Positions 3,435-53,410 of a DNA stretch of 64,000 bases are shown here, in pieces. The notes under the pieces were generated by a model. That model was not told the origin of the DNA and searched no databases. It saw nothing but the letters and a program-made list of their open reading frames with translations. Origin of the DNA: a virus. The stretch spans positions 195,772 through 259,771 of IMG/VR virus record IMGVR_UViG_3300042923_000569; one strand, given 5' to 3'. Each line of letters begins with the position of its first letter. The stretch's first letter is position 1. Made by a program: the position numbers and the translations under genes.

Positions 3435-4358
3435 TTAGAAATCGCCCGGATTGACTTGATAGACTTTTAGACCCAATAGCTTACGCCACATGTCAACAAC
3501 TTTGGTGCGATCATCAAATACTTTAACTACTTTATATTCAGTACTTACATGATTCATAAACAACTCATACTTAACAATATCATCAGGGCGGTTATCATCC
3601 GCAGCACGCATGTAGATATGGTCATAAGGAACACCGTATTTCTGCAACCACTTCTCAGTATCTTCTTTGCAAGTTTCATGGCGACCACTCATGATGATTA
3701 CCTTACGACCAAGATAGTTCTTTTCTGCCATAACAGAAAAGATAACTTCAGGATCTGGATCATCAAGTAGTACTTTGTTTTCTTCATATGGACCACGTTT
3801 ACCTTCCATATGAGCAAGAGTACCGTCAATATCTACAATGATTGCTTCTTCCAAGCCAGAATCATAAGTGAATTTTGGTAAGACACTGTACAAGTACTTT
3901 TCTGCCATACCATCAATAACTTCTTCAGGTACGGACTTTTCCCGCATTAAGTTACGTTCTTTACACTGCTTAACATAATCTTTAATAGCGAAGAATTCAT
4001 GTACGAAAGTTTTATCCTTCTTAAATTCAGTAAAGAAGTTTTGTTCTTTATAAGTGTAATTGTGTTCGCGTGCAAATTCTTTCCACTTATTACGTACTGC
4101 CGGATTTAAGTTGGTATCACCAACGATAATGTTCCAGTTATTCAAAGCTGCATGTTTAGCTGCACTGTACTGAGCGTCTTGCACGTACTGTTCATTGTCT
4201 TTGCGGAACTTATAGTTTTGGTGTGATCCAGCCATAGTCTGGCGAATGTCGTCTAAGTTTACGATTACCGTTTTAGAACGAGCACTTTTTACATGTTCTT
4301 TCGCCCAGGTCGTTTTACCGCAACCTGGTGGTCCTACTGTTACTGTCAATACTGGCAT
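3435..4358 (-). CDS. pseT: polynucleotide 5'-kinase / 3'-phosphatase (T4 PseT-like)
   Basis: Walker A GPPGCGKTTWA; phosphatase DxDGT motif (DIDGTLA); C-terminus ...VDMWRKLLGLKVYQVNPGDF closely resembles the T4 PNK C-terminus; the first ATG is M6 of the track ORF, whose own start is TTG. Confidence 0.9.
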   Translation of the reverse strand: MPVLTVTVGPPGCGKTTWAKEHVKSARSKTVIVNLDDIRQTMAGSHQNYKFRKDNEQYVQDAQYSAAKHAALNNWNIIVGDTNLNPAVRNKWKEFAREHNYTYKEQNFFTEFKKDKTFVHEFFAIKDYVKQCKERNLMREKSVPEEVIDGMAEKYLYSVLPKFTYDSGLEEAIIVDIDGTLAHMEGKRGPYEENKVLLDDPDPEVIFSVMAEKNYLGRKVIIMSGRHETCKEDTEKWLQKYGVPYDHIYMRAADDNRPDDIVKYELFMNHVSTEYKVVKVFDDRTKVVDMWRKLLGLKVYQVNPGDF

Positions 4359-24534: not shown

Positions 24535-24804
24535 CTACTTAGCGATCTTTGCTGCAAGTACTTTCAAGAATGTTTTCAATTCTTTTTCGTTAGAAGTTTC
24601 TAACAGTACATTGCCATTAATTTCATTTACTTTGAATGAACCGTTGGCATACACTCTTACAAAGTACATTGGTTCTGCTGCATCTTCTTCATCATCGATA
24701 GACCAGAACTCTACTTCAGTAGCTTCTTCATCATCGATTGTTTCCATGAAGTCTGCAACCTGGTTAGCACCAAACAGTTTATTCAGCAGGGTGATAATTT
24801 TCAT
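24535..24804 (-). CDS. hypothetical protein (89 aa, acidic)
   Basis: ORF track; early-type promoter about 35 nt upstream. Confidence 0.55.
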   Translation of the reverse strand: MKIITLLNKLFGANQVADFMETIDDEEATEVEFWSIDDEEDAAEPMYFVRVYANGSFKVNEINGNVLLETSNEKELKTFLKVLAAKIAK

Positions 24805-24836
24805 TTCGTTTACTCCGTTGCGTTTCCGATGTAGTA

Positions 24837-24865
24837 ATAATAGTACTTCTGAATGTTTAACGCAA
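24837..24865 (-). promoter_or_regulatory. early-type promoter, AGTACT cassette (TTGCGT-17-TATTAT)
   Basis: minus strand aaaaagGCTTGCGTtaaacattcagaagtacTATTATtactacatcgg; an A/T-rich UP-like tract lies upstream. Confidence 0.55.
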
Positions 24866-24910
24866 GCCTTTTTTAAATTAAAAGTATAATTTTTTATTTG
24901 CTGTAGGGTA

Positions 24911-24939
24911 TTGACAGGCCACCAGCACTAAGGCATAAT
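24911..24939 (+). promoter_or_regulatory. consensus sigma70-like promoter facing away from the genes (TTGACA-17-CATAAT)
   Basis: gtaTTGACAggccaccagcactaaggCATAATtaacac; would make a ~150-nt plus-strand RNA ending at the 25078-25103 terminator. Confidence 0.5.
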
Positions 24940-24950
24940 TAACACACAGA

Positions 24951-25036
24951 CGGCGAAACGTCTTTGACCCATAGGGTGCGGAGCTATATAAAAAATAAAA
25001 GTACTATCCAATAGATAGATCTATGCACCCTATGGG
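24951..25036. repeat. quasi-palindromic intergenic element (CCCATAGGGTGC arms), copy 1
   Basis: small hairpin gacgGCGAAAcgtc, then arm cccatagggtgc(ggag) 24968-24983, ~41-nt loop, arm gcaccctatggg 25025-25036. Confidence 0.6.
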
Positions 25037-25077
25037 CTTAGTGGCTGTATCTGCCAATGAGATAAGTATAGCAAAAA

Positions 25078-25103
25078 GGGCTGACCGAAGTCAACCCCTT
25101 TTA
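25078..25103. terminator. conserved hairpin terminator of the GGGCTGAC-CGAA-GTCAACCC family
   Basis: perfect stem only in the minus-strand transcript (G-U replaces C.A); U-runs on both sides. Confidence 0.6.
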
Positions 25104-25118
25104 TGTAATTCTTTTTGG

Positions 25119-25289
25119 TTATGCTGGCTGGTGATCGTGACGGCCTTTAGTGTAGGCGTCCTCTAATTCTTTACGTTGCCAGGTATCGAGTGAGTTAAAC
25201 AAAAGGCGGTTATCATTATCAACCGGGCGGTTGTTGGTTCCTAATTCGTACCAACGTACTTTCAACATTTCTAAATCTACTTGAACCAT
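25119..25289 (-). CDS. small protein (56 aa; below the track cutoff); paralog of 25385..25594
   Basis: hand translation MVQVDLEMLKVRWYELGTNNRPVDNDNRLLFNSLDTWQRKELEDAY...; AAGGA RBS; shares LK(I/V)RWY and LF(D/N)SL motifs with its paralog. Confidence 0.45.
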   Translation of the reverse strand: MVQVDLEMLKVRWYELGTNNRPVDNDNRLLFNSLDTWQRKELEDAYTKGRHDHQPA

Positions 25290-27337: not shown

Positions 27338-27369
27338 TTCTTCAACCCCTGTTCTGTTTCGATGTAGTA

Positions 27370-27398: not shown

Positions 27399-27447
27399 GT
27401 ACTTTTTAAATTAAAAGTATAATTATTTGAAATTATTTTATTAGTAC

Positions 27448-27456
27448 TGCTACAAT
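27448..27456 (+). promoter_or_regulatory. extended -10 promoter (TGcTACAAT) reading into element copy 2
   Basis: cTGCTACAATacagcacccc...; transcript would end at the 27513-27540 terminator. Confidence 0.35.
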
Positions 27457-27459
27457 ACA

Positions 27460-27540
27460 GCACCCCAATGGGTTAGTAGCTGTATCTGCCAATGAGATAA
27501 GTATAGCAAAAAGGGCTGACCGAAGTCAACCCCTTTATTA
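27460..27540. repeat. partial palindromic element plus conserved tail and terminator (copy 2)
   Basis: gcaccccaatggg + ttagtagctgtatctgccaatgagataagtatagcaaaa + gggctgaccgaagtcaaccc. Confidence 0.55.
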
Positions 27541-28610: not shown

Positions 28611-28639
28611 TTGCAAGAATTATTTTAGTACAATATATA
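28611..28639 (+). promoter_or_regulatory. AGTACT-cassette promoter on the plus strand (TTGCAA-17-TATATA) reading into element copy 3
   Basis: agtacTTGCAAgaattattttagtacaaTATATAacc. Confidence 0.45.
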
Positions 28640-28664
28640 ACCTATAACTAACAAATATATCTAT

Positions 28665-28745
28665 GCACCCTATGGGTTAGTAGCGGTATCTGCCAATGAG
28701 ATAAGTATAGCAAAAGGGGCTAACCTAAGTCAACCCCTTGTTTAA
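28665..28745. repeat. partial palindromic element plus conserved tail and terminator (copy 3)
   Basis: gcaccctatggg + ttagtagcggtatctgccaatgagataagtatagcaaaa + ggggctaacctaagtcaacccc. Confidence 0.55.
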
Positions 28746-33339: not shown

Positions 33340-33368
33340 TTGACAGACCACCAGCAATAGGGCATAAT
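33340..33368 (+). promoter_or_regulatory. consensus sigma70-like promoter (TTGACA-17-CATAAT), plus strand
   Basis: caTTGACAgaccaccagcaatagggCATAATtatc; shares the ccaccagc spacer with the 24911 and 39437 copies. Confidence 0.5.
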
Positions 33369-33377
33369 TATCACATA

Positions 33378-33411
33378 GACAGCGAAATGTCTTATCCCAT
33401 AGGGTGCGGAG
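33378..33411. repeat. palindromic element, 5' half only (copy 4)
   Basis: gacaGCGAAAtgtc hairpin (stem covaries with copy 1) + cccatagggtgcggag. Confidence 0.5.
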
Positions 33412-33478
33412 TTGTACCTGTAATATATAAATTTAAAACAAAAATAAGTACTGGCTATTATACCAGTACTATGATATA

Positions 33479-33778
33479 CTATTTCCAGATATACTTGGTT
33501 ACGCCGTAATATCCGCGATGCAGTACTACCACATCATTACTTGTCATAACATGGCTTAGGGTAATGTCTACCAGTGTTTCGCCATTAAACAACGCCATCC
33601 AGCCATAACCAGTATCAACATATACATGATGATCGCCATCGCTTTCAACTAATTGCCATTCAAACGGTTTACCGTTCTTATTCCACAATGCCAGATCTTC
33701 GCACGGTTCTGTTACCAGGCGATGCGGAAGATCGGACATATAATCAAAACGTTTTTCCAACTGTTCGATGATTGACAT
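33479..33778 (-). CDS. hypothetical protein (99 aa)
   Basis: ATG at 33778 behind the conserved leader ttaattgagagaattc; the track N-terminal extension merely translates the upstream promoter cassette. Confidence 0.55.
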   Translation of the reverse strand: MSIIEQLEKRFDYMSDLPHRLVTEPCEDLALWNKNGKPFEWQLVESDGDHHVYVDTGYGWMALFNGETLVDITLSHVMTSNDVVVLHRGYYGVTKYIWK

Positions 33779-33854
33779 ATGAATTCTCTCAATTAAAGTA
33801 ACTACATTATAAAGTACTATCATAATAATTACAATAGTACTTTTGATAATGTTT

Positions 33855-34061
33855 TTACGCGGCGTGATACTGCTTGCCTTTTTCTGGATGTTCGCCTGAT
33901 TGTTTCCAACGACAGACTTCCTGCTCTGCTTCGTGACGTGTCGCCCAATCATTCACATAGTTGTCACAGAATCGAACAACAAAACGTTTTTTGCCTGAAA
34001 TATCACCAGTGAATTCAGGAGTAATTGTATAGCGGCGATCTTTAAAAGCCATGATAGTCAT
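33855..34061 (-). CDS. hypothetical protein (68 aa)
   Basis: ORF track, ATG start. Confidence 0.45.
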   Translation of the reverse strand: MTIMAFKDRRYTITPEFTGDISGKKRFVVRFCDNYVNDWATRHEAEQEVCRWKQSGEHPEKGKQYHAA

Positions 34062-35749: not shown

Positions 35750-35859
35750 TTTTCTTTCTCCGTCTCGTTTCGATATAAGTAAGTATACTCTCTTTTAGTT
35801 TATGTACAAGTACTTTTTAAATTAAAAGTATAATTATATTTTTTAACGGGCACACTTCA

Positions 35860-35937
35860 GCACCCTAATGGGTTTGACCGTTTCGCCGGATTAAGATAAG
35901 TATACTAAAAGGGCTGACTTGCGTCAACCCCTTTTTT
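35860..35937. repeat. palindromic element half in inverted orientation, plus terminator (copy 5)
   Basis: gcaccctaatggg-tttgaccgtttcgccgg is the reverse complement of the copy-1 5' module; followed by gggctgacttgcgtcaaccc T6. Confidence 0.5.
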
Positions 35938-37574: not shown

Positions 37575-37976
37575 TTACAGATCTTTTTTACGCTTCACAT
37601 CATTGCAGTTATCATAGTAAGGAATCGATAACATATTACACAACGTGTACAGGGTACGCACACGAACATTGTCAAAATCAACAAAGTTCCCCTGTACTGC
37701 TTCGCGGAAAATAGTATAACCAGTGTATTCATACTGATTACCATGCCCAGGCATAAACTCATTGCGAACTACATCGATCCAGACCTGTTCACCTTCAGGC
37801 CGGTTATAGTGGTTAGCGTTTAACTCGTTTGCCTTTTCCACATCAACCAGGCAGGCGACATAAGTACTGTGATACGTTACGCCTAATGAATCAGTCCAGC
37901 GATTACCAGTAAGAGTAATGCCCTTGATATCTTCCAGGGTTAAACGTGCGATTGTGATTCTAGTATCTTTGTCCAT
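37575..37976 (-). CDS. hypothetical protein (133 aa)
   Basis: ORF track. Confidence 0.5.
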   Translation of the reverse strand: MDKDTRITIARLTLEDIKGITLTGNRWTDSLGVTYHSTYVACLVDVEKANELNANHYNRPEGEQVWIDVVRNEFMPGHGNQYEYTGYTIFREAVQGNFVDFDNVRVRTLYTLCNMLSIPYYDNCNDVKRKKDL

Positions 37977-38102
37977 CTGGTAAACCTCTCAGTTAAAATT
38001 GTGTATCTCGTTTCGATATAAAAGATTATACGCGATTCTAGTTTATGTGCAAGTACTTTTTAAAATGAATTTATAATTATATTTTTTTAATGGGTATAAC
38101 TC

Positions 38103-38186
38103 TGTACCCTATGGGCTAAGCCATTTCTCTGGCGTATGAGTACTATAACAAAAGAGGCTAACTTTCGTCAACCCCTTTTGATAATT
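38103..38186. repeat. degenerate palindromic element half plus degenerate terminator (copy 6)
   Basis: gtaccctatgggctaagccatttctctggcg ... gaggctaactttcgtcaacccc T4. Confidence 0.4.
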
Positions 38187-38188
38187 AA

Positions 38189-38659
38189 TTATAGATACTT
38201 TTCAGGGATAGAATCTTGCTGAATGATTTGCTTTTCAGCCGCGAGTTCTGTTACAAACTCTTTCAGCTTTTTAAAGTACTTGTCATAACCCGCGATTACT
38301 TTATCAGCATCGCCTTTAATCTTGCGTACTGCAATCTTGCGGCTTTCAGCGTACATATGCGGCTTTTCAGTAATGCAAGTTACCCAGGCACCGTCAAATT
38401 CAACTTCCAGATCCTGGAGTTCAACTTCTGAATCATTAAACTTGATTCCTTTGTGAATGTATGACCGGAAAGTTACTGGATCATTCATTCTGATTTTTGC
38501 GGAAACATCATTAATGTCGCCAATCAAACCGCAGAAGATAGCAATACCGCCACCTAGTGCTAGTGGGCTGATTCGAATACTTCCATTAGGAAAGTACTTC
38601 AGAAATGATTCTGTTACTGCTGCCTGGAGTTCGTTGGCTTTCATGTTCTGTTCTCTCAA
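38189..38659 (-). CDS. hypothetical protein (156 aa)
   Basis: ORF track. Confidence 0.5.
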   Translation of the reverse strand: MREQNMKANELQAAVTESFLKYFPNGSIRISPLALGGGIAIFCGLIGDINDVSAKIRMNDPVTFRSYIHKGIKFNDSEVELQDLEVEFDGAWVTCITEKPHMYAESRKIAVRKIKGDADKVIAGYDKYFKKLKEFVTELAAEKQIIQQDSIPEKYL

Positions 38660-38726
38660 TTAAAAAGTTACTATATAACTAATTATAAAGTACTCGCTAG
38701 TTAATGCAAGTACTTTTGATAATTAA

Positions 38727-39170
38727 TTATTCAACAGTTCCCGCCAGGATCTCTCCTACGCGTACCATTTCATAACGATCAACGATTGATAAAGATAGCT
38801 TAGTATCTTTTTGGCGTACACTATACCAGGTATCACCTTCAAACACATAACGGGTAATGTTTTTGTTTGCGATAAGGAACATCAACCATGATTTAGTAGT
38901 TAGTGGCTCTGTGCCAGTTTCACCACGATCACGCCCATAAGCTACAGTATAGCCAGGAACCTTTTTATTGAAGCTGTGACCTTCTGGACACTCGATAGAT
39001 TTATCCAGTACTGACAGATCACCCAGGGCGATTAGTGCCTTTGCACGTTCTGCATCGTTGTAATGCTCAACTAACATTCTACCAGTGTGACCGATATAGC
39101 CATCATAGTTTACAGATGACCAGGTAACATGTTCGCCGTCTTTGATTGCAATAACTGCTGGAGTACCCAT
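38727..39170 (-). CDS. hypothetical protein (147 aa)
   Basis: ORF track. Confidence 0.5.
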   Translation of the reverse strand: MGTPAVIAIKDGEHVTWSSVNYDGYIGHTGRMLVEHYNDAERAKALIALGDLSVLDKSIECPEGHSFNKKVPGYTVAYGRDRGETGTEPLTTKSWLMFLIANKNITRYVFEGDTWYSVRQKDTKLSLSIVDRYEMVRVGEILAGTVE

Positions 39171-39436
39171 TTTTAAATCCTCTCAATTAAAAGTAACATC
39201 GTCTCGTTTCGATATAGGTAATTATATAGTACTGGTAATCGAAAGCAAGTACTTTTTAAAATAAAAGTATAATTAAGAATCAAAAATAAATTTGCATCTA
39301 AAGAAAAATGATGATACGATGTTTATGCGGCGAAAATGTGAGGTTCGCCGCAAGTCCAACGAATGATAACGCATTGTATTACTTTATAGGATAGCTATGG
39401 GTTTGCTATCCTTTTTTTTTTATTTTCGAAAAGGTA

Positions 39437-39465
39437 TTGACTCCACCAGCCAAATAACCGATAAT
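39437..39465 (+). promoter_or_regulatory. sigma70-like promoter (TTGACT-17-GATAAT) with an upstream T-rich/A-rich UP-like tract, plus strand
   Basis: ttttttttttattttcgaaaaggtaTTGACTccaccagccaaataaccGATAATcac. Confidence 0.5.
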
Positions 39466-39473
39466 CACATCAA

Positions 39474-39623
39474 GACGGCGAAACGTCCTTTCCCATAGGG
39501 TGCGGAGCTATGTCTTTAAAGTACTAATTTTCTTACGGGTATTCCTCTGCACCCTATGGGCTACGCCTTTGTCTCGGCTTGTATGTATTATTGCATTTTT
39601 CGGGGATTGAAGTCAACCCCCGA
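39474..39623. repeat. complete quasi-palindromic element (copy 7) with 3' hairpin terminator
   Basis: gacgGCGAAAcgtc; arm cccatagggtgcggag 39492-39507; ~37-nt loop; arm ctctgcaccctatggg 39545-39560; tail ...tcggggattgaagtcaacccccga ttt. Confidence 0.6.
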
Positions 39624-39634
39624 TTTGTAAAGAT

Positions 39635-39991
39635 TTATTCTTCTTGCGTTACACATTCCAGGCGGTAAGTACTGAAATGTTTACGGAATAAATCGCAAGC
39701 CTGATCGCCGTTTTCCGCTTGCATTATAATCGAACCTTCTCGATTATTTTTAATATCGAAATATGTTACTATCCAGCCACGCGTTTTGATTTCAGATAGT
39801 GGCAAGTGAATTGATCCACCGCTGGTTAATTGACCTTCAGGATCTTTGTTGATTGCTTCCTGGTCGATAGTCAGTGAATAGTTTTCACCATCTACAACGT
39901 GGAACAATTCAACAATCGGATCGATGTTTCCACGTTTGTTTGCGATGCGTTCCAGTGTAGAAAGTACTCCGCGAAGTTCTGATAATCTCAT
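39635..39991 (-). CDS. hypothetical protein (118 aa)
   Basis: ORF track. Confidence 0.5.
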   Translation of the reverse strand: MRLSELRGVLSTLERIANKRGNIDPIVELFHVVDGENYSLTIDQEAINKDPEGQLTSGGSIHLPLSEIKTRGWIVTYFDIKNNREGSIIMQAENGDQACDLFRKHFSTYRLECVTQEE

Positions 39992-40030
39992 TTAAAATTT
40001 ACTCTCGTTTGTTGGTGTGTGGTAATAGTA

Positions 40031-40432
40031 CTATACTACTTCAGAAGTAGCAAGAATATTTTCAAAGTATTCGATTAAATCACAAAGTAACTTGTAGCGA
40101 AGTTTACCAGGTTCAGAATCCATTACGCAAAGGTTACGCTGATTCCAATGTAAGTTAACAGCCCGATTAACATCATTATCAGTTAATTGCATTTCAACCG
40201 GATAACCGCAGTGTAAACCCATTTCCACAAATACAGGCTGCAAGTATTCGTGATCGATCCCGGTAACTTCACTGTTAGGAGTGTGGGCGAATACGTGCCA
40301 GCAGATACCATGCTGTCTGGTTAGGTTGAATGATTCACCGTTGATAGTGGTGTAAGTAACATCACGATCTAAACAGTCTTTCATTGCTGTTAGTACTTTC
40401 AGGACTAAAACTGCCTGCTCTGTACGTTTCAT
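40031..40432 (-). CDS. hypothetical protein (133 aa)
   Basis: first ATG (MKRTEQAV...) at 40432 directly behind the conserved ttttaattgagaggcaataca leader. Confidence 0.5.
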   Translation of the reverse strand: MKRTEQAVLVLKVLTAMKDCLDRDVTYTTINGESFNLTRQHGICWHVFAHTPNSEVTGIDHEYLQPVFVEMGLHCGYPVEMQLTDNDVNRAVNLHWNQRNLCVMDSEPGKLRYKLLCDLIEYFENILATSEVV

Positions 40433-40566
40433 TGTATTGCCTCTCAATTAAAATTTGTTTTGTTTCGATACAGGGAAGTTTACACTACTCGAAAGTTTAT
40501 ACAAGTACTTTTATAAAATATTTTTAAACTCTCTGTAACGCATTCTAAGCGATTTAAAGTACTGCC

Positions 40567-40863
40567 TTACACCTTCAACGATTGAACGTTAAAAGCCCCG
40601 CTAATAGGCTTACACGCAAGATCTATAGCATAGTTCGCTTTCTTGTGGATTATGTACATACACGAATCAAACTGATGATTATACGGCATATCATAAACCC
40701 GGCGTTGTACAAGTTCACCACTAACAACAAAGGCCAGGTAGCCGCTGAAGGTACAACTACGCGGGCCAGCACTGGTCATCGTTTTAGCAATACGGGTACG
40801 GGGATCAATCAGGGACGAAATAGGCTTAAGGTTAAGATTGTTATTCATGGCGTTTAGTCTCAA
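40567..40863 (-). CDS. hypothetical protein (98 aa)
   Basis: ORF track; overlapping plus-strand ORF 40582..40857 judged spurious. Confidence 0.45.
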   Translation of the reverse strand: MRLNAMNNNLNLKPISSLIDPRTRIAKTMTSAGPRSCTFSGYLAFVVSGELVQRRVYDMPYNHQFDSCMYIIHKKANYAIDLACKPISGAFNVQSLKV

Positions 40864-40995
40864 TTAAAAGGTAGAATCTAAAACGCTCTGTAATCAATTC
40901 TAAGCGTTTCTAATAGTACTTTAAGCGAATGTATCACAGTACTATTAGAAATGCTTAGCGGGGCATATAGCCCCGCCATGCTGTATTACTTTGTA

Positions 40996-41640
40996 TTACG
41001 CGGCGGTATCTTCAGAGGCTACGCGGAAAGTTTCGATGAAAGTTTCGCGGTCCATGTTTTTAGAAGCTACCAGATCTTTGAGTTCCTGGCTCATGTTGCC
41101 TTTTTCCGGCATATCGTACTGTTTGCCATCGACTTCAACAGTGACGCGGTTGTATGCGTTGTTGCTGCCGGTAAGTGACGCTTTGATCTTCTTACCTACA
41201 CCAGCAACCGCCGCCTGAGCTACTGCCAGATCCACGCCACCAGCTACCAGAAGTTTGAGCATTTTTTCACGTTCTTCTTTCGCTTTCTCTTCCGCTTCAG
41301 CGTTCAGACGTTCACGTTCTGCCTGAGCTTTAACGCGGGCTTCTTCGCGGGCCGCTTCAGCACGTGCGGCTTCTTCTTTCTGGTACTGTACAGCAGCCGG
41401 GATTGCTTTAGACGCTGCAACCAGAATTTTAGAAATCACGTCAGTGTCAGTTGTTTTATCAACAAAGTACTGAGCCAGGTTAGTCGCAACAGTGTTTACG
41501 TGATCAGCAATGTCTGCTTTGTGCTGAGCCAGTACTTCTTTACTGTGTGTCTTACCTTCTTCCGGTGCCGCCAGGGTAGGAGCCTGAGCGAACAGGATTG
41601 AATTCAGTGTTACTTTAGGAGCTTTAGAAGTGTTAGTCAT
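40996..41640 (-). CDS. hypothetical Ala/Glu/Lys-rich coiled-coil protein (214 aa)
   Basis: ORF track; strong GAGGGT RBS; sigma70-like TTGACT-17-TAAATT promoter near 41700-41735 on the minus strand. Confidence 0.6.
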   Translation of the reverse strand: MTNTSKAPKVTLNSILFAQAPTLAAPEEGKTHSKEVLAQHKADIADHVNTVATNLAQYFVDKTTDTDVISKILVAASKAIPAAVQYQKEEAARAEAAREEARVKAQAERERLNAEAEEKAKEEREKMLKLLVAGGVDLAVAQAAVAGVGKKIKASLTGSNNAYNRVTVEVDGKQYDMPEKGNMSQELKDLVASKNMDRETFIETFRVASEDTAA

Positions 41641-42170
41641 GATATTACCCTCGAATTTTTTAAGTTAATTTGTTTGGCCTGATTGTTTCGGCTTGATTAA
41701 AATTTAAACTACTTGTTTCTTTCAGTCAACTACTATTTTCAACTTTCAAGAAACTTTTTTTCTTTCTATCGTCTGGAGCATTTCGCCCTTTCGATAACCA
41801 ACATCTTACACCATCCTTTCTAACTAGCAAGTACTTTTTAAAAACTTTTTTTCGTTCTATCCAAAAGAGAGTTTCTATCTTCAGGACTTGCTAGCCAGGT
41901 TGTTAAAGAGCGGTGTTCCGTGTTGATGTGGTAATAGTACACTAACCATAAAACTCTGCAAGCACTTTCTTATAAAAACTTATAACTTTTTTCATTCGTC
42001 GTTTTTCTTCCTTTATACGCGTAAAGAAACCCACAACACATAGGAAGCATTTACAGCCCTTTAAAGTACTAATCTAAGTGTTTACCAGGCGTAATCCTCC
42101 AGCCTCTTATAGTGCGTCCTATGCGTTCCTATATAGAAGAAACTATTTTCAATCTTTTTAAAGAAAATGC

Positions 42171-42198
42171 TTGCTTCTCTGATTCAGTACTGTATAAT
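42171..42198 (+). promoter_or_regulatory. AGTACT-cassette promoter on the plus strand (TTGCTT-16-TATAAT)
   Basis: aaaatgcTTGCTTctctgattcagtactgTATAATc reading into element copy 8. Confidence 0.5.
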
Positions 42199-42207
42199 CT
42201 TTTATAT

Positions 42208-42312
42208 CGAAGCGAAATTCGTTATCCCATAGGGTGCGGAGATCCGTCTATTGCTTTTTTACTTTTTCCTGGGTATAGCTCCGCACCCTATGGGAAAGGC
42301 CATTTCGCTGGC
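42208..42312. repeat. complete quasi-palindromic element (copy 8) with perfect dyad symmetry
   Basis: cgaaGCGAAAttcg; 4 nt; cccatagggtgcggag; 36-nt loop; ctccgcaccctatggg; 4 nt; gccaTTTCGCtggc. Confidence 0.65.
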
Positions 42313-42492
42313 TTGTACGTATTATTGCATAATTCGATCAGTACTGTCAACAAAAAAGAAAATTAAAATAATGCTTGATCTGGCTGGTGGCTGTGATATT
42401 ATTACCCCGTCAACACGAAAAGACAGCTATTGATTCTGCCTGGTACTAACCAGACGCGGAAGGGGAACTAATGGAAAAACGCAATGAAAAAG

Positions 42493-42620
42493 CGTTTAGC
42501 CATCTAAACGTCTAGAGTGCTAGCCACCTAGATGGATAGCCATTTAGCCGTCTAAACGTCTAGACATATAACCATCCAGAAGTACAGCCATCTTTCCATC
42601 TACACTGCCAGAAGTCTATC
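42493..42620. repeat. iteron-like cluster of CC(A/G)TCTA 7-mers
   Basis: at least 8 copies (ccatctaaacgtctag x2, ccacctagatgg palindrome, ccatttagcc, ccatccag, ccatcttt, ccatctacac, ccgtctgttg) within ~130 bp of non-coding DNA. Confidence 0.5.
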
Positions 42621-42743
42621 CGTCTGTTGATAGCAGATAGGGATAGTACACCCAAAATTTAAGTAAAGTACAACATCGATCTATCCATAATTCTTTGACT
42701 AGGATCATTACATCCTGAAATATACAATACAAAAAATAATAGC

Positions 42744-42806
42744 ACTTAGGATAGTTCCTGGTACTGTAAACATCTACAGCAGGAATTATATTAAGTGCTA
42801 TCAACG
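42744..42806. repeat. long imperfect hairpin / nested inverted repeat
   Basis: atagcactta...ttcctggtactgtaaacatctacagcaggaa...taagtgctat. Confidence 0.4.
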
Positions 42807-42935
42807 TACTTCTAATGTATATTCTCAGTACTAAAGATTCCTGAGAAAGCAGGGTGTCCAGTCAAGACAACTTCGTTACAACGTTACGAGGGGAATCTCG
42901 TATAGTACTGTTACAGTCGGGATTCACCTTCCTGG

Positions 42936-43244
42936 TTACTCTCTTCCGCAACATGGATATATCTTACCATATCTAATTTGCACGTCAAGTACTTTATTTT
43001 TAATTTCCCACATTCTAGTATTCCCTGGGACTGTTGTTTTGTCCAGTGATATCACGCTTCGGTTATAAAATTTACACAACGTTCGAAGTACTTTAAATTT
43101 AAGAATATCCTGAAACTTTTTTGTACTTTTGATGATCCAGGAAAAATCTGATAGGTACTCCAAATTTTTTAGGATTCGTCTTTTTTCTAACGCACCAACC
43201 AAGTTTTTCCCATACCTCATTGTACCTTTTTTAAAAAAGGTCAT
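42936..43244 (-). CDS. possible basic protein (102 aa) inside the 2-kb non-coding hub
   Basis: ORF track only; no clear RBS or promoter seen. Confidence 0.25.
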   Translation of the reverse strand: MTFFKKGTMRYGKNLVGALEKRRILKNLEYLSDFSWIIKSTKKFQDILKFKVLRTLCKFYNRSVISLDKTTVPGNTRMWEIKNKVLDVQIRYGKIYPCCGRE

Positions 43245-43299
43245 TTGTACAAAATGTGCTATTTACATTCGACTTCAGGAAGAGATATAGCGGCAGGGG

Positions 43300-43380
43300 G
43301 TAACAGTACTGTTATGATGTTCTTAGTACTGTTACCATACTCTTAGTACTGTTATGATGTTCTTAGTACTATATCATTAC
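43300..43380. repeat. four tandem ~20-bp direct repeats (TCTTAGTACTGTTATGATGT)
   Basis: gtaacagtactgttatgatgt / tcttagtactgttaccatac / tcttagtactgttatgatgt / tcttagtactatatcattac, about 250 bp upstream of the plus-strand operon. Confidence 0.6.
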
Positions 43381-43625
43381 TATTAATTCTCTGCAATATT
43401 AAAGTACTTTAAACATAATCATAAACCTTCGTAAACGCAATATAAGCGTGTTTGAATCCTGTAGATATCGCTGTGCATATCTCCAGCAAGCAAACAGAAG
43501 CTCTCAGAGAGCGTCCTATGCGGTTATAGGGGGTATTTGGAGGGTATATTATGGTATAGTTCTTAGGTACTGAAATGTTGTATATAGGGTAAATACCTAT
43601 AATATAATAATGGAGAGGGAAGATT

Positions 43626-53377: not shown

Positions 53378-53410
53378 CAAAAAGGGCTGACCGAAGTCAA
53401 CCCCTTATAT
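53378..53410. terminator. conserved GGGCTGACCGAAGTCAACCC hairpin terminator
   Basis: exact copy of the family stem-loop. Confidence 0.55.

What the first reader, a model, noticed from the sequence alone, without database searches (positions are those of the whole stretch)
24911..25103. Candidate small-RNA genes: consensus sigma70-like promoters pointing opposite to the genes and ending at a shared terminator
In several cassettes a strong promoter on the plus strand, antisense to all flanking genes, reads into the palindromic element and a conserved tail (TTAGTRGCKGTATCTGCCAATGAGATAAGTATAGCAAAA, identical in copies 2 and 3). The promoters are TTGACA-17-CATAAT at 24911 and 33340, TTGACT-17-GATAAT at 39437, TTGCTT-16-TATAAT at 42171, TTGCAA-17-TATATA at 28611 and an extended -10 TGcTACAAT at 27448. 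Each would stop at the GGGCTGACCGAAGTCAACCC hairpin, giving terminated 75-190-nt transcripts with no ORF: a paralogous family of putative non-coding RNAs. I do not recall equivalents in T4 itself. Their placement, divergent from each early promoter, suggests antisense or decoy regulation, or promoter-occupancy control of early transcription.
Basis: partly seen in the sequence, partly recalled or inferred. Interest (0 to 1): 0.7.

Follow-up and report, generated by a model that had tools for sequence, protein, structure and literature searches.

The report
Promoter-coupled structured RNA module, both strands
The flagged spot is a head-to-head pair of a previously undescribed ~50-base structured RNA element that always sits directly behind a strong bacterial-type promoter and recurs, on either strand, about ten times in the early-gene region of this giant phage and its relatives.

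Summary
The window is a new jumbo myovirus related to Serratia phage BF, GAP32 and 121Q. The other two (27448, 28611) are no better than chance.

These are not separate sRNA genes ending at a shared terminator. The "conserved tail" and the hairpin belong to the minus strand. The hairpin is a PeSL-like terminator carrying the -35 of a minus-strand promoter.

The repeated thing is a unit:
- a sigma70-type promoter;
- a 5'-terminal hairpin whose stem covaries and whose loop is GCGAAA-like;
- the near-invariant word CCCAYAGGGUGC;
- a weak second hairpin rich in G·U pairs.

The window has 10 clear copies, 4 on the plus strand and 6 on the minus strand. Region 24911-25103 is a convergent pair. A covariance model finds 68 copies in the window and nine related loci, and 8 more in 121Q. 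Nearly all have a promoter in register.

Rfam has no matching family. The literature I could search does not mention the motif, and a strict pattern scan found it in no bacterial genome.

Function is inferred. Most likely it is a 5'-terminal RNA element that fixes the fate of transcripts from this class of promoter. Copies antisense to the genes would then give cis-antisense RNAs.

The parts
24911..24939 (+). Sigma70-type promoter of the plus-strand unit. -35 TTGACA at 24911-24916, 17-nt spacer, -10 CATAAT at 24934-24939. Predicted start near A24946.
   Evidence: 11/12 matches to consensus. Units in relatives carry a promoter in the same register.
24941..24999 (+). Plus-strand unit. 5' hairpin AGACG-GCGAAA-CGTCT at 24948-24963. 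Core word CCCATAGGGTGC at 24968-24979. The 3' strand of the second hairpin is degenerate in this copy.
   Evidence: Covariance model R1, 41.2 bits, E=6e-9; this copy was not in the seed alignment. Fold.
25005..25063 (-). Minus-strand unit convergent with the plus one. Core word at 25025-25036. 5' hairpin UGGC-AGAUACA-GCCA at 25042-25056.
   Evidence: R1, 28.6 bits, E=1.6e-5.
25065..25094 (-). Promoter of the minus-strand unit. -35 TTGACT lies inside the hairpin, 18-nt spacer, extended -10 TGcTATACT.
   Evidence: The same composite sits directly in front of genes at 53385, 54563, 63170, 26130 and 29132.
25078..25102 (-). Terminator hairpin of the upstream minus-strand gene (25289..25119). It is PeSL-like and carries the -35 box. 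It is weaker when read on the plus strand.
   Evidence: -19.2 kcal/mol as minus-strand RNA against -12.7 as plus-strand RNA; C·A mismatch on the plus strand.
24837..24894 (-). Second early promoter, P_E, for gene 24804..24535. -35 TTGCGT (complement of 24860-24865), -10 TATTAT (complement of 24837-24842), AT-rich UP-like block at 24871-24894. It lies back to back with the plus promoter.
   Evidence: (families D7, D10).
33340..33427 (+). Solitary promoter plus unit, antisense to the genes. It points into the 3' end of gene 33952..33479.
   Evidence: R1, 67.7 bits. Syntenic copies follow the SPFH gene cluster in BF, pEa_SNUABM_12 and Yen9.
39437..39616 (.). Convergent pair. Plus side: promoter 39437-39465 and unit 39466-39523. 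Minus side: unit 39529-39586 and promoter 39587-39616, whose -35 lies in a hairpin with a weak U tract on the plus-strand side.
   Evidence: R1, 64.7 and 58 bits. Same architecture in GAP32 and CBB.
42171..42350 (.). Convergent pair. Plus side: promoter 42171-42198 and unit 42200-42257. Minus side: unit 42263-42320 and promoter 42321-42350.
   Evidence: R1, 67.8 and 67.4 bits. The orthologue in L006 has a fully compensated stem change.
38084..38171 (-). Solitary unit in the same direction as the genes. Its promoter is embedded in a terminator hairpin. A second promoter and gene 37976..37575 follow.
   Evidence: R1, 65.3 bits.
35840..35927 (-). Solitary gene-direction unit with a hairpin-embedded promoter.
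   Evidence: R1, 39.2 bits.
28645..28733 (-). Weaker gene-direction unit with a hairpin-embedded promoter.
   Evidence: R1, 24.9 bits, E=1.7e-4.
27440..27529 (-). Degenerate gene-direction copy (CCCATTGGGGTGC) with its promoter.
   Evidence: It scores worse than E=1 with R1.

Best explanation
Region 24911-25103 is a convergent pair of copies of one conserved unit.

The unit has five parts:
- a strong sigma70-type promoter;
- an inferred start site 1-2 nt before a 4-5 bp hairpin, whose stem sequence varies while its loop stays GCGAAA, GAGAAA or AGAYAAA;
- a 3-5 nt spacer;
- the near-invariant word CCCAYAGGGUGC;
- a weak second hairpin, GGGUG pairing with YRYCY.

The unit is transcribed on whichever strand its promoter lies. 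It most likely acts as RNA, at the 5' end of its own transcript. The terminal hairpin would shield the 5' end from 5'-end-dependent decay. The invariant word would be a binding site for a factor common to this promoter class, either a protein or RNA polymerase itself.

Copies in gene direction put this leader on a second, longer mRNA for the next gene. That gene also has its own promoter. These are antisense to the partner unit's transcript, or to the 3' end of the neighbouring gene. They would oppose read-through and pair with it.

Shown here: the anatomy, the conservation, the covariation and the coupling to a promoter. Inferred: transcription, the start site, RNA stability, factor binding and any regulatory effect.
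For: Anatomy:
- Eleven copies in the window align from the -35 box to the core word with fixed spacing.
- RNAalifold predicts the two hairpins unaided.

Covariation:
- In the seed set 94.7% of cells pair, with 21 double-sided changes against 6.9 in shuffles (0/500). Controls with the partner slid by 1-3 columns pair at 29-51%.
- On 66 distinct copies, all 4 pairs of hairpin 1 show compensatory changes. There are 89 such cells against 31 in shuffles (0/500).
- An orthologous copy that is 91% identical has CGAA/UUCG changed to CAGA/UCUG.

Strand:
- Hairpin 2 is 87-97% paired, but about half of those pairs are G·U. On the opposite strand they would be C·A mismatches.

Promoter coupling:
- 54 of 65 units have a match of at least 9/12 to the sigma70 consensus, against 3.2% of random windows from the same loci.
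- In 57 of 65 the -10 box ends 0-1 nt before model position 1.

Spread and specificity:
- The model finds 10 copies in the window, all within 24.9-42.3 kb, 68 across the window plus nine related loci, and 8 in 121Q.
- It gives only 3 weak hits (at most 20.8 bits) in 873 kb of unrelated viral contigs that contain the core 14-16-mer.

Orientation:
- Antisense copies are kept at syntenic sites in BF, pEa_SNUABM_12 and Yen9.
- Convergent pairs keep a fixed 45-bp (sometimes 63-bp) gap although the spacer sequence differs.

Context:
- Gene-direction copies are followed by a second promoter and then the gene.
- The distant relative PA5oct has abundant non-coding RNAs in its terminal repeat by RNA-seq (PMC7318152).
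Against: - There are no expression data for any phage that carries the unit.
- Single units are not unusually stable when folded alone (z from -0.1 to -2.5).
- Hairpin 2 shows only one-sided changes, and it competes with a CCC:GGG mini-hairpin that also has comparative support. The loop between CCC and GGG varies from 3 to 4 nt, and there is one CCU...AGG double change.
- A plain 5' stabiliser does not explain a 12-nt invariant word, a conserved loop, or the fixed geometry of the pairs.
- No 3' end is defined for most copies.
- No binding partner has been identified.
- The seed alignment was chosen for hairpins in register. The 68-copy alignment was fitted to the model, which biases pair counts towards the structure.
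Confidence: 0.45

Rival explanations
1. The plus-strand copies are independent, terminated small-RNA genes of 75-190 nt. They act in trans or as antisense RNAs or decoys, and the gene-direction copies are incidental.
For: - Promoters and structure are conserved on the plus strand.
- The pairs at 24911 and 39437 reach a hairpin plus U tract at about +155. The GAP32 orthologue has CCCCCG-UUUUG at about +151.
- A neighbouring plus-strand unit, 'sRNA-A' at 39292-39421, has a classic promoter and a T10 terminator. It has positional homologues in L006, GAP32 and CBB.
Against: - Most copies point in gene direction and have no terminator before the next gene.
- The shared hairpin is built for the minus strand.
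- 33340 and 42171 have no terminator.
- No complementary target for the core word occurs elsewhere in the window at up to 2 mismatches.
Confidence: 0.2
2. A nascent-RNA element that acts on RNA polymerase, like HK022 put or lambda nut. The 5' hairpin and core word would bind the elongating polymerase, or a small phage protein. That would change pausing or termination across the many terminator hairpins of the early region.
For: - The unit is strictly promoter-proximal and has two stem-loops.
- NAGGGT inside the core keeps the A and T that matter in a -10-like element. putL is likewise just downstream of its promoter, has two stem-loops, and has a -10-like element linked to sigma-dependent pausing (PMC9378689).
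- Hairpin 1 has a purine-rich loop reminiscent of boxB (own knowledge).
- The region is packed with terminator-promoter hairpins.
Against: - No boxA is present in any of 68 units.
- A canonical rrn-type boxA sits elsewhere, at the head of the early gene array, so antitermination may already be provided for.
- Almost every gene has its own promoter.
- Antisense-pointing copies would send terminator-resistant polymerase against the genes.
- At about 50 nt the unit is shorter than put, and sequence similarity to put was not tested.
Confidence: 0.15
3. A DNA-level element. The copies would be recombination cassettes of the PeSL kind, or operators or roadblock sites for a phage protein. Transcription and RNA folding would be incidental.
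For: - The copies sit between ORFan genes in a plastic early region and are tied to terminator-promoter composites, like PeSLs (PMC2839356).
- CCC(N3-4)GGG is palindromic.
- The fixed 45-bp spacing in pairs suggests a geometric constraint.
Against: - The stem of hairpin 1 covaries while its loop is conserved. That points to a folded single strand, not a duplex binding site.
- The motif always has the same polarity relative to its promoter.
- The variation in hairpin 2 is strand-specific, limited to Y/R changes.
Confidence: 0.1
4. Replication origins primed by transcription, as at T4 ori(uvsY) and ori(34). Convergent promoters would fire into an AT-rich spacer.
For: The pairs enclose an AT-rich centre of about 19 bp, and they lie in the region that is a terminal repeat in the relative CBB.
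Against: There are more than ten copies in 20 kb, and most are solitary. No replication data exist. The idea does not explain the conserved RNA structure.
Confidence: 0.04

Closest known systems
PeSL (promoter-early stem-loop) cassettes of T4-type phages (Arbiol et al. 2010, PMC2839356; Comeau et al. 2014, PMC4122927)
   Same: The hairpin at 25078-25102 together with the -10 box at 25065-25070 is a terminator stem-loop fused to a sigma70-type early promoter. It sits between small ORFan genes and is repeated many times.
   Different: PeSLs end in a Shine-Dalgarno sequence and the next gene's start codon, and no conserved transcribed RNA module is described for them. Here a structured unit and a second promoter lie between the hairpin-promoter and the gene. 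The units also occur antisense to the genes and as convergent pairs.
HK022 putL/putR and lambda nut sites (promoter-proximal nascent-RNA elements that modify RNA polymerase)
   Same: Both are short two-hairpin RNAs placed right after an early promoter. Both have a -10-like word inside the element. Hairpin 1 has a purine-rich loop.
   Different: The unit has no boxA. It is about 50 nt against about 70 nt for put. There are ten or more copies per genome end rather than two. Copies lie in both orientations. No antitermination has been shown.
Cis-antisense RNA pairs from convergent promoters (IS10 RNA-OUT/RNA-IN, P22 sar/ant, lambda OOP/cII; own knowledge)
   Same: Face-to-face promoters about 110 bp apart would give fully complementary short RNAs with stable stem-loops. 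The solitary copy at 33340 points into the 3' end of a convergent gene, as OOP does.
   Different: The pair is symmetric: both RNAs begin with the same conserved 5' module. No ribosome-binding site or coding sequence lies in the overlap.
Non-coding RNAs in the terminal repeat of Pseudomonas jumbo phage PA5oct (PMC7318152)
   Same: Both are non-coding transcription units in the terminal-repeat or early region of a related jumbo phage clade. In PA5oct they are highly expressed by RNA-seq.
   Different: The covariance model finds no unit in 16.5 kb of PA5oct that includes both ncRNAs. The PA5oct RNAs are 236-451 nt, and the authors found no known promoters for them.

Membership tests
PeSL cassette (Arbiol et al. 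2010) | Sigma70-like early promoter with an AT-rich region upstream | tested here: met
   TTGACT-18-TGcTATACT at 25094..25065, preceded by an A-rich run.
PeSL cassette (Arbiol et al. 2010) | Stable stem-loop next to or overlapping the promoter boxes, able to terminate upstream transcription | tested here: met
   GGGGUUGAC-UUCG-GUCAGCCCC plus U5 folds at -17 to -19 kcal/mol (z -3 to -5.8) on the minus strand, and the -35 box lies inside the stem. Termination itself was not assayed.
PeSL cassette (Arbiol et al. 2010) | Shine-Dalgarno sequence and start codon of the next gene at the 3' end of the motif | tested here: not met
   At 24911-25103 two units and a second promoter lie between the hairpin-promoter and the gene's ATG at 24804. 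The feature is met at the copies at 53385, 54563 and 63170.
PeSL cassette (Arbiol et al. 2010) | Mediates recombination, mini-circles and gene shuffling | not testable with these tools
   Needs inverse PCR or comparison of close genome pairs.
   Met for 24911, 33340, 39437 and 42171. Not met for 27448 and 28611.
   The hairpin is weakened on the plus strand at 25078-25102. At 39597-39626 the U tract is weak, though the GAP32 orthologue is better. 33340 and 42171 have none.
   Only unconserved ORFs without a Shine-Dalgarno sequence overlap the units, for example 25023..25166. Other pairs have no start codon at that position.
Lambda-type nut site | boxA (CGCUCUUA / GCUCUUUAACAA) | tested here: not met
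   0 of 68 units contain GCTCTT.
Lambda-type nut site | boxB hairpin with a 5-nt GNRA-like purine loop, bound by an N protein | tested here: inconclusive
   Hairpin 1 has a 6-8 nt purine-rich loop and a covarying stem. I did not look for an N-like protein.
HK022 put RNA | About 70 nt with two stem-loops just downstream of an early promoter (putL), and a -10-like element | tested here: inconclusive
   The unit is about 50 nt, has two hairpins, starts at about +2, and has an invariant NAGGGT. The put features are taken from PMC9378689. No sequence comparison was made.
HK022 put RNA | Suppresses pausing and termination in cis | not testable with these tools
   Needs transcription assays.
Any Rfam 15 family | Score at or above the family's gathering threshold | tested here: not met
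   0 hits at gathering threshold in the whole window. Only noise appears at E up to 5-10 in 38000-42700 and 24880-25130.
Cis-antisense RNA pair (IS10, P22 sar type) | Convergent promoters with overlapping, complementary transcripts | tested here: met
   At sequence level only. Predicted start sites are about 110 bp apart in three window pairs and twelve pairs in relatives.
Cis-antisense RNA pair (IS10, P22 sar type) | The antisense RNA covers the ribosome-binding site or start codon of a target gene | tested here: not met
   The overlap holds no ribosome-binding site or ORF. The next gene has its own promoter downstream of the pair.
CRISPR-repeat mimic (RNA anti-CRISPR) | Similarity to host CRISPR repeats | tested here: not met

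The most novel reading that the evidence does not exclude
The unit is a new class of promoter-coupled regulatory RNA specific to the Rak2/GAP32/121Q-like jumbo phages of Enterobacterales. It would be made in ten or more copies from the terminal-repeat end of the genome. Its invariant CCCAYAGGGUGC and GCGAAA-loop hairpin would capture RNA polymerase or a host RNA-binding protein as part of host takeover. The symmetric convergent pairs, with their fixed 45-bp spacing, would be a new kind of transcriptional insulator or double-stranded-RNA generator.
Probability: 0.25. Interest if true: 0.8.

Novelty: new variant of a known kind. Interest (0 to 1): 0.6.

Why it matters
Early transcription of Rak2-like jumbo phages is essentially unstudied. 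Their published genome papers predict promoters only in front of ORFs. A structured RNA motif with more than 70 instances has gone unannotated in them. It shows clear covariation, is strictly coupled to a promoter, and occurs on both strands.

If it controls transcript stability, polymerase processivity or antisense silencing, it would be a new handle on how giant phages schedule their host-takeover genes. It also flags probably spurious ORF calls over these sites, such as CBB_7.

The motif is short and easy to test with reporter fusions and 5'-end RNA-seq.

Tried and rejected
- Rfam at gathering threshold on the whole window, and at lax E-values on two sub-regions: only noise.
- tRNA and tmRNA scan: none.
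- boxA within units: none.
- CRISPR-repeat mimicry: no better than shuffled repeats.
- Small peptide genes on the plus strand: the ORFs are not conserved and lack a Shine-Dalgarno sequence.
- Targets of the core word elsewhere in the window: none at up to 2 mismatches.
- Copies in 185,579 bacterial and archaeal species genomes, using a 21-base pattern: none.
- The unit in PA5oct: none.
- Exact 14-16-mer scans of viral contigs: mostly chance hits in coding DNA of unrelated phages. They served as a negative control.
- Literature search for the motif strings, and for transcriptomics of these genera: nothing relevant.
- Resemblances I considered and dropped because they hold only in subsets of copies or are partial: a GAAA tetraloop with an 11-nt receptor, the tRNA-Ala acceptor stem, the T7-type CTATAGGG promoter word, RegB or CsrA GGA(G) sites (GGAG is in only 26 of 66 loops and GGA in 36 of 66), and Dam GATC sites (17 of 66).

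Full report
**Source of the window**

The window is not close to any deposited phage at the DNA level. Only the repeat itself gives near matches, all in jumbo myoviruses such as PBECO4, 121Q, GAP32 and Erwinia and Salmonella phages.

- The RCC1-repeat genes at 44-47 kb are about 68% identical to Serratia phage BF, the Erwinia pEa_SNUABM phages and Kaldavass.
- PHROG hits include a T4-type RNA ligase and a polynucleotide kinase.
- Gene order around the SPFH gene matches BF, pEa_SNUABM_12 and Yersinia phage fHe-Yen9-04.
- From 3 kb to 43 kb all genes lie on the minus strand.

**Check of the observation**

The stated promoters exist. 24911 and 33340 match the consensus at 11 of 12 positions and 39437 at 10 of 12.

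The palindromic word (10 matches against 1.46 expected) and the GGCTGAC-N4-GTCAACC hairpin (11 copies against 0.14 expected) are strongly over-represented.

Promoter-like matches as such are common here: 91 against 63 +/- 8.5 in shuffles. The two weaker sites, 27448 and 28611, therefore need other support, and they have none (see 'The two unsupported promoters' below).

**What the hairpin and 'tail' are**

Read on the coding (minus) strand, the shared hairpin is GGGGUUGAC-UUCG-GUCAGCCCC-UUUUUGC-UAUACU. That is a terminator for the upstream gene. Its stem carries a TTGAC -35 box, and an extended -10 follows.

The same composite stands directly in front of genes at 53385, 54563, 63170, 26130 and 29132. 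This is the architecture described as PeSL in T4-type phages (PMC2839356).

The hairpin is asymmetric. As minus-strand RNA it folds at -17 to -19 kcal/mol, with U·G pairs. As plus-strand RNA it has C·A mismatches and reaches only -8.4 to -12.7 kcal/mol.

**The repeated unit**

Aligning the four plus-strand sites with seven minus-strand sites, each in its own orientation, gives one architecture with fixed spacing:
- -35 TTGAC;
- a -10 box;
- about 7 nt;
- a small hairpin;
- 3-5 nt;
- CCCAYAGGGUGC;
- GGAG-like bases, then YRYCY.

So the plus-strand promoters are not a separate invention. They are inverted copies of a unit that also occurs in gene direction. Region 24911-25103 is two such units facing each other, which creates the 'palindrome'. 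The same is true at 39437-39616 and 42171-42350.

**Relatives**

The same unit occurs in all of the following, and nowhere is it annotated:
- GAP32 and CBB (genus Mimasvirus);
- BF, pEa_SNUABM_12 and Yen9 (genus Eneladusvirus);
- 121Q (genus Asteriusvirus);
- three metagenomic jumbo-phage contigs (L002, L006, L106).

In CBB the copies lie inside the 22.5-kb terminal repeat. One is covered by a probably spurious plus-strand ORF, CBB_7.

The CBB genome paper predicted promoters only from the 100 bp upstream of each ORF, and reports nothing like this (PMC5259590).

**Structure**

RNAalifold on 19 in-register copies predicts two hairpins without guidance.

Hairpin 1:
- All four pairs show compensatory double changes.
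- In the seed set there are 21 such cells against 6.9 in shuffles (0/500), with 94.7% of cells paired against 29-51% when the partner is slid by 1-3 columns.
- On 66 distinct copies aligned by the covariance model there are 89 such cells against 31 (0/500).
- That larger alignment was fitted to the model, so it leans towards the structure. The orthologue comparison does not share that bias. Window 42160-42360 and L006 are 91% identical, and the four differences inside the plus-strand hairpin turn CGAA/UUCG into CAGA/UCUG.
- The loop is conserved (GCGAAA, GAGAAA, AGAACAAA, AGAUAAA).

Hairpin 2:
- GGGUG pairs with YRYCY in 87% of cells in an unfitted alignment and 97% in the fitted one.
- All changes are one-sided, and about half the pairs are G·U.
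- This is weak thermodynamically. It is strand-specific, because the opposite strand would have C·A mismatches.
- A competing CCC:GGG mini-hairpin also has support. Its loop varies from 3 to 4 nt (AUA, ACA, UAUA, UAGA), and one copy has CCU...AGG.
- I could not decide between the two.

**Coupling to a promoter**

- 54 of 65 copies have a match of at least 9/12 to the sigma70 consensus. Only 3.2% of random windows from the same loci reach this.
- In 57 of 65 the -10 box ends 0-1 nt before model position 1.
- With the usual 7-nt distance, transcripts would start 1-2 nt before hairpin 1. That start site is an inference.

**Specificity and range**

- The model finds 10 copies in the window, all between 24.9 and 42.3 kb.
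- It finds 68 in the window plus nine related loci, and 8 in 24 kb of 121Q.
- It finds none in 16.5 kb of PA5oct.
- In 873 kb of unrelated viral contigs that contain the core 14-16-mer it gives only three hits, at 20.8 bits or less.
- A 21-base pattern finds nothing in 185,579 bacterial and archaeal species genomes.
- Rfam has no matching family.
- The motif strings appear in the searchable literature only as unrelated sequences such as primers.

**Orientation and context**

- In the window, 4 copies are antisense to the genes and 6 are in gene direction, plus one degenerate gene-direction copy.
- In 19 kb of BF, 3 of 12 are antisense. In 121Q, 3 of 8.
- The antisense copy at 33340 is syntenic with copies in BF, pEa_SNUABM_12 and Yen9.
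- Gene-direction copies sit between a terminator-embedded promoter and a second early promoter with an UP-like block, which then drives the gene. The unit is therefore not needed to provide a promoter for that gene.
- Convergent pairs have constant geometry. The two core words are 45 bp apart in 11 pairs and 63 bp apart in 3, with one odd pair. The central spacer differs in sequence between pairs.
- Transcripts crossing a pair fold into 12-25 bp hairpins (z about -4).

**3' ends**

- The plus RNAs from 24911 and 39437 reach a hairpin plus U tract at about +155. The GAP32 orthologue has a good one.
- In many pairs the complement of the partner's hairpin 1, followed by a U-rich run, offers a weak stop near +108.
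- 33340 and 42171 have nothing comparable.
- 3' ends are therefore undetermined.

**The two unsupported promoters**

- At 27448, the TACAAT is the complement of the conserved UUGUA of the minus-strand unit.
- At 28611, the TTGCAA is the other strand of the palindromic CTTGCAAG -35 box of a minus-strand promoter.
- Neither is followed by a unit.

**Mechanism**

I commit to an RNA-level, cis-acting 5' module.
- A hairpin at the very 5' end is the classic way to block 5'-end-dependent decay in E. coli (own knowledge).
- The invariant 12-mer and the conserved loop argue for a shared binding partner.
- Antisense copies would then yield stable cis-antisense RNAs.

Confidence is moderate (0.45), because nothing here shows transcription or an effect.

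A put- or nut-like action on RNA polymerase is the most interesting rival. It gains from the parallels with putL (PMC9378689). It loses from the absence of boxA, and from the presence of a canonical rrn-type boxA elsewhere.

DNA-level explanations do not account for a covarying stem with a conserved loop, or for the fixed polarity.

**Novelty**

The hairpin-promoter composite is a PeSL-like element and is already known as a kind. The transcribed unit, its two orientations and the symmetric convergent pairs are not described in Rfam or in the papers I could search. I rate this a new variant of a known kind: promoter-proximal phage regulatory RNA or regulatory cassette.

Noticed in passing
window 39292-39421 (+): A classic-looking small-RNA gene antisense to all flanking genes. 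It has promoter TTGCAT-17-TACGAT, a 5' hairpin GCGGCGAA...TTCGCCGC, and a strong terminator GGATAGC...GCTATCC plus T10. The T run abuts the -35 box of the plus-strand unit at 39437. Positional homologues with their own promoter and terminator exist in L006, GAP32 (L011 ~2845-2960) and CBB (L012 ~3840-3955). It is absent at that place in BF and Yen9.
   Followed up: partly
window 41899-41911 (-); L033 17730-17741, L034 17753-17764, L035 15728-15739: An rrn-type boxA, CGCTCTTTAACAA(C), lies about 20 nt downstream of a minus-strand promoter at the head of the early gene array. The 14-mer is invariant in BF and Yen9 while the flanks diverge, and pEa_SNUABM_12 carries the same 12-mer. This hints at NusB/S10-type antitermination of early transcription.
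   Followed up: partly
whole window: AGTACT occurs 258 times against 21.6 expected from base composition, a 12-fold excess. The next most enriched palindromic hexamer reaches 1.6-fold. The copies are spread evenly through coding and non-coding DNA, and also flank the -35 and -10 boxes of early promoters.
   Followed up: partly
window 41640-43620: About 2 kb with almost no ORFs, at the point where gene orientation switches. It holds several promoter-plus-hairpin leaders, repeated TAGACG/TAGATGG words at 42430-42620, and a 20-bp tandem repeat AGTACTGTTATGATGTTCTT x4 at 43305-43384. By synteny this is where the linear record of BF begins and ends. 121Q has a similar ORF-free gap.
   Followed up: no
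window 24820-24835, 27355-27365, 35765-35776, 38008-38019, 39204-39215: The second class of early promoters (P_E) has its own conserved initial transcribed word, AUCGAAAC(G/A), seen as ...GTTTCGAT... on the plus strand. It shares CGAAA with the loop of the unit's first hairpin.
   Followed up: no
L012 3935-4108 (CBB_7): An annotated plus-strand 'hypothetical protein' in CBB lies exactly over a convergent unit pair. It is probably a spurious gene call.
   Followed up: no
L033 15790-16546 vs L034 15846-16543: In the annotation tables, BF and pEa_SNUABM_12 appear to carry the same two small genes (417 and 270 nt) in opposite order. This could be an example of cassette shuffling. I did not check it at sequence level.
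   Followed up: no
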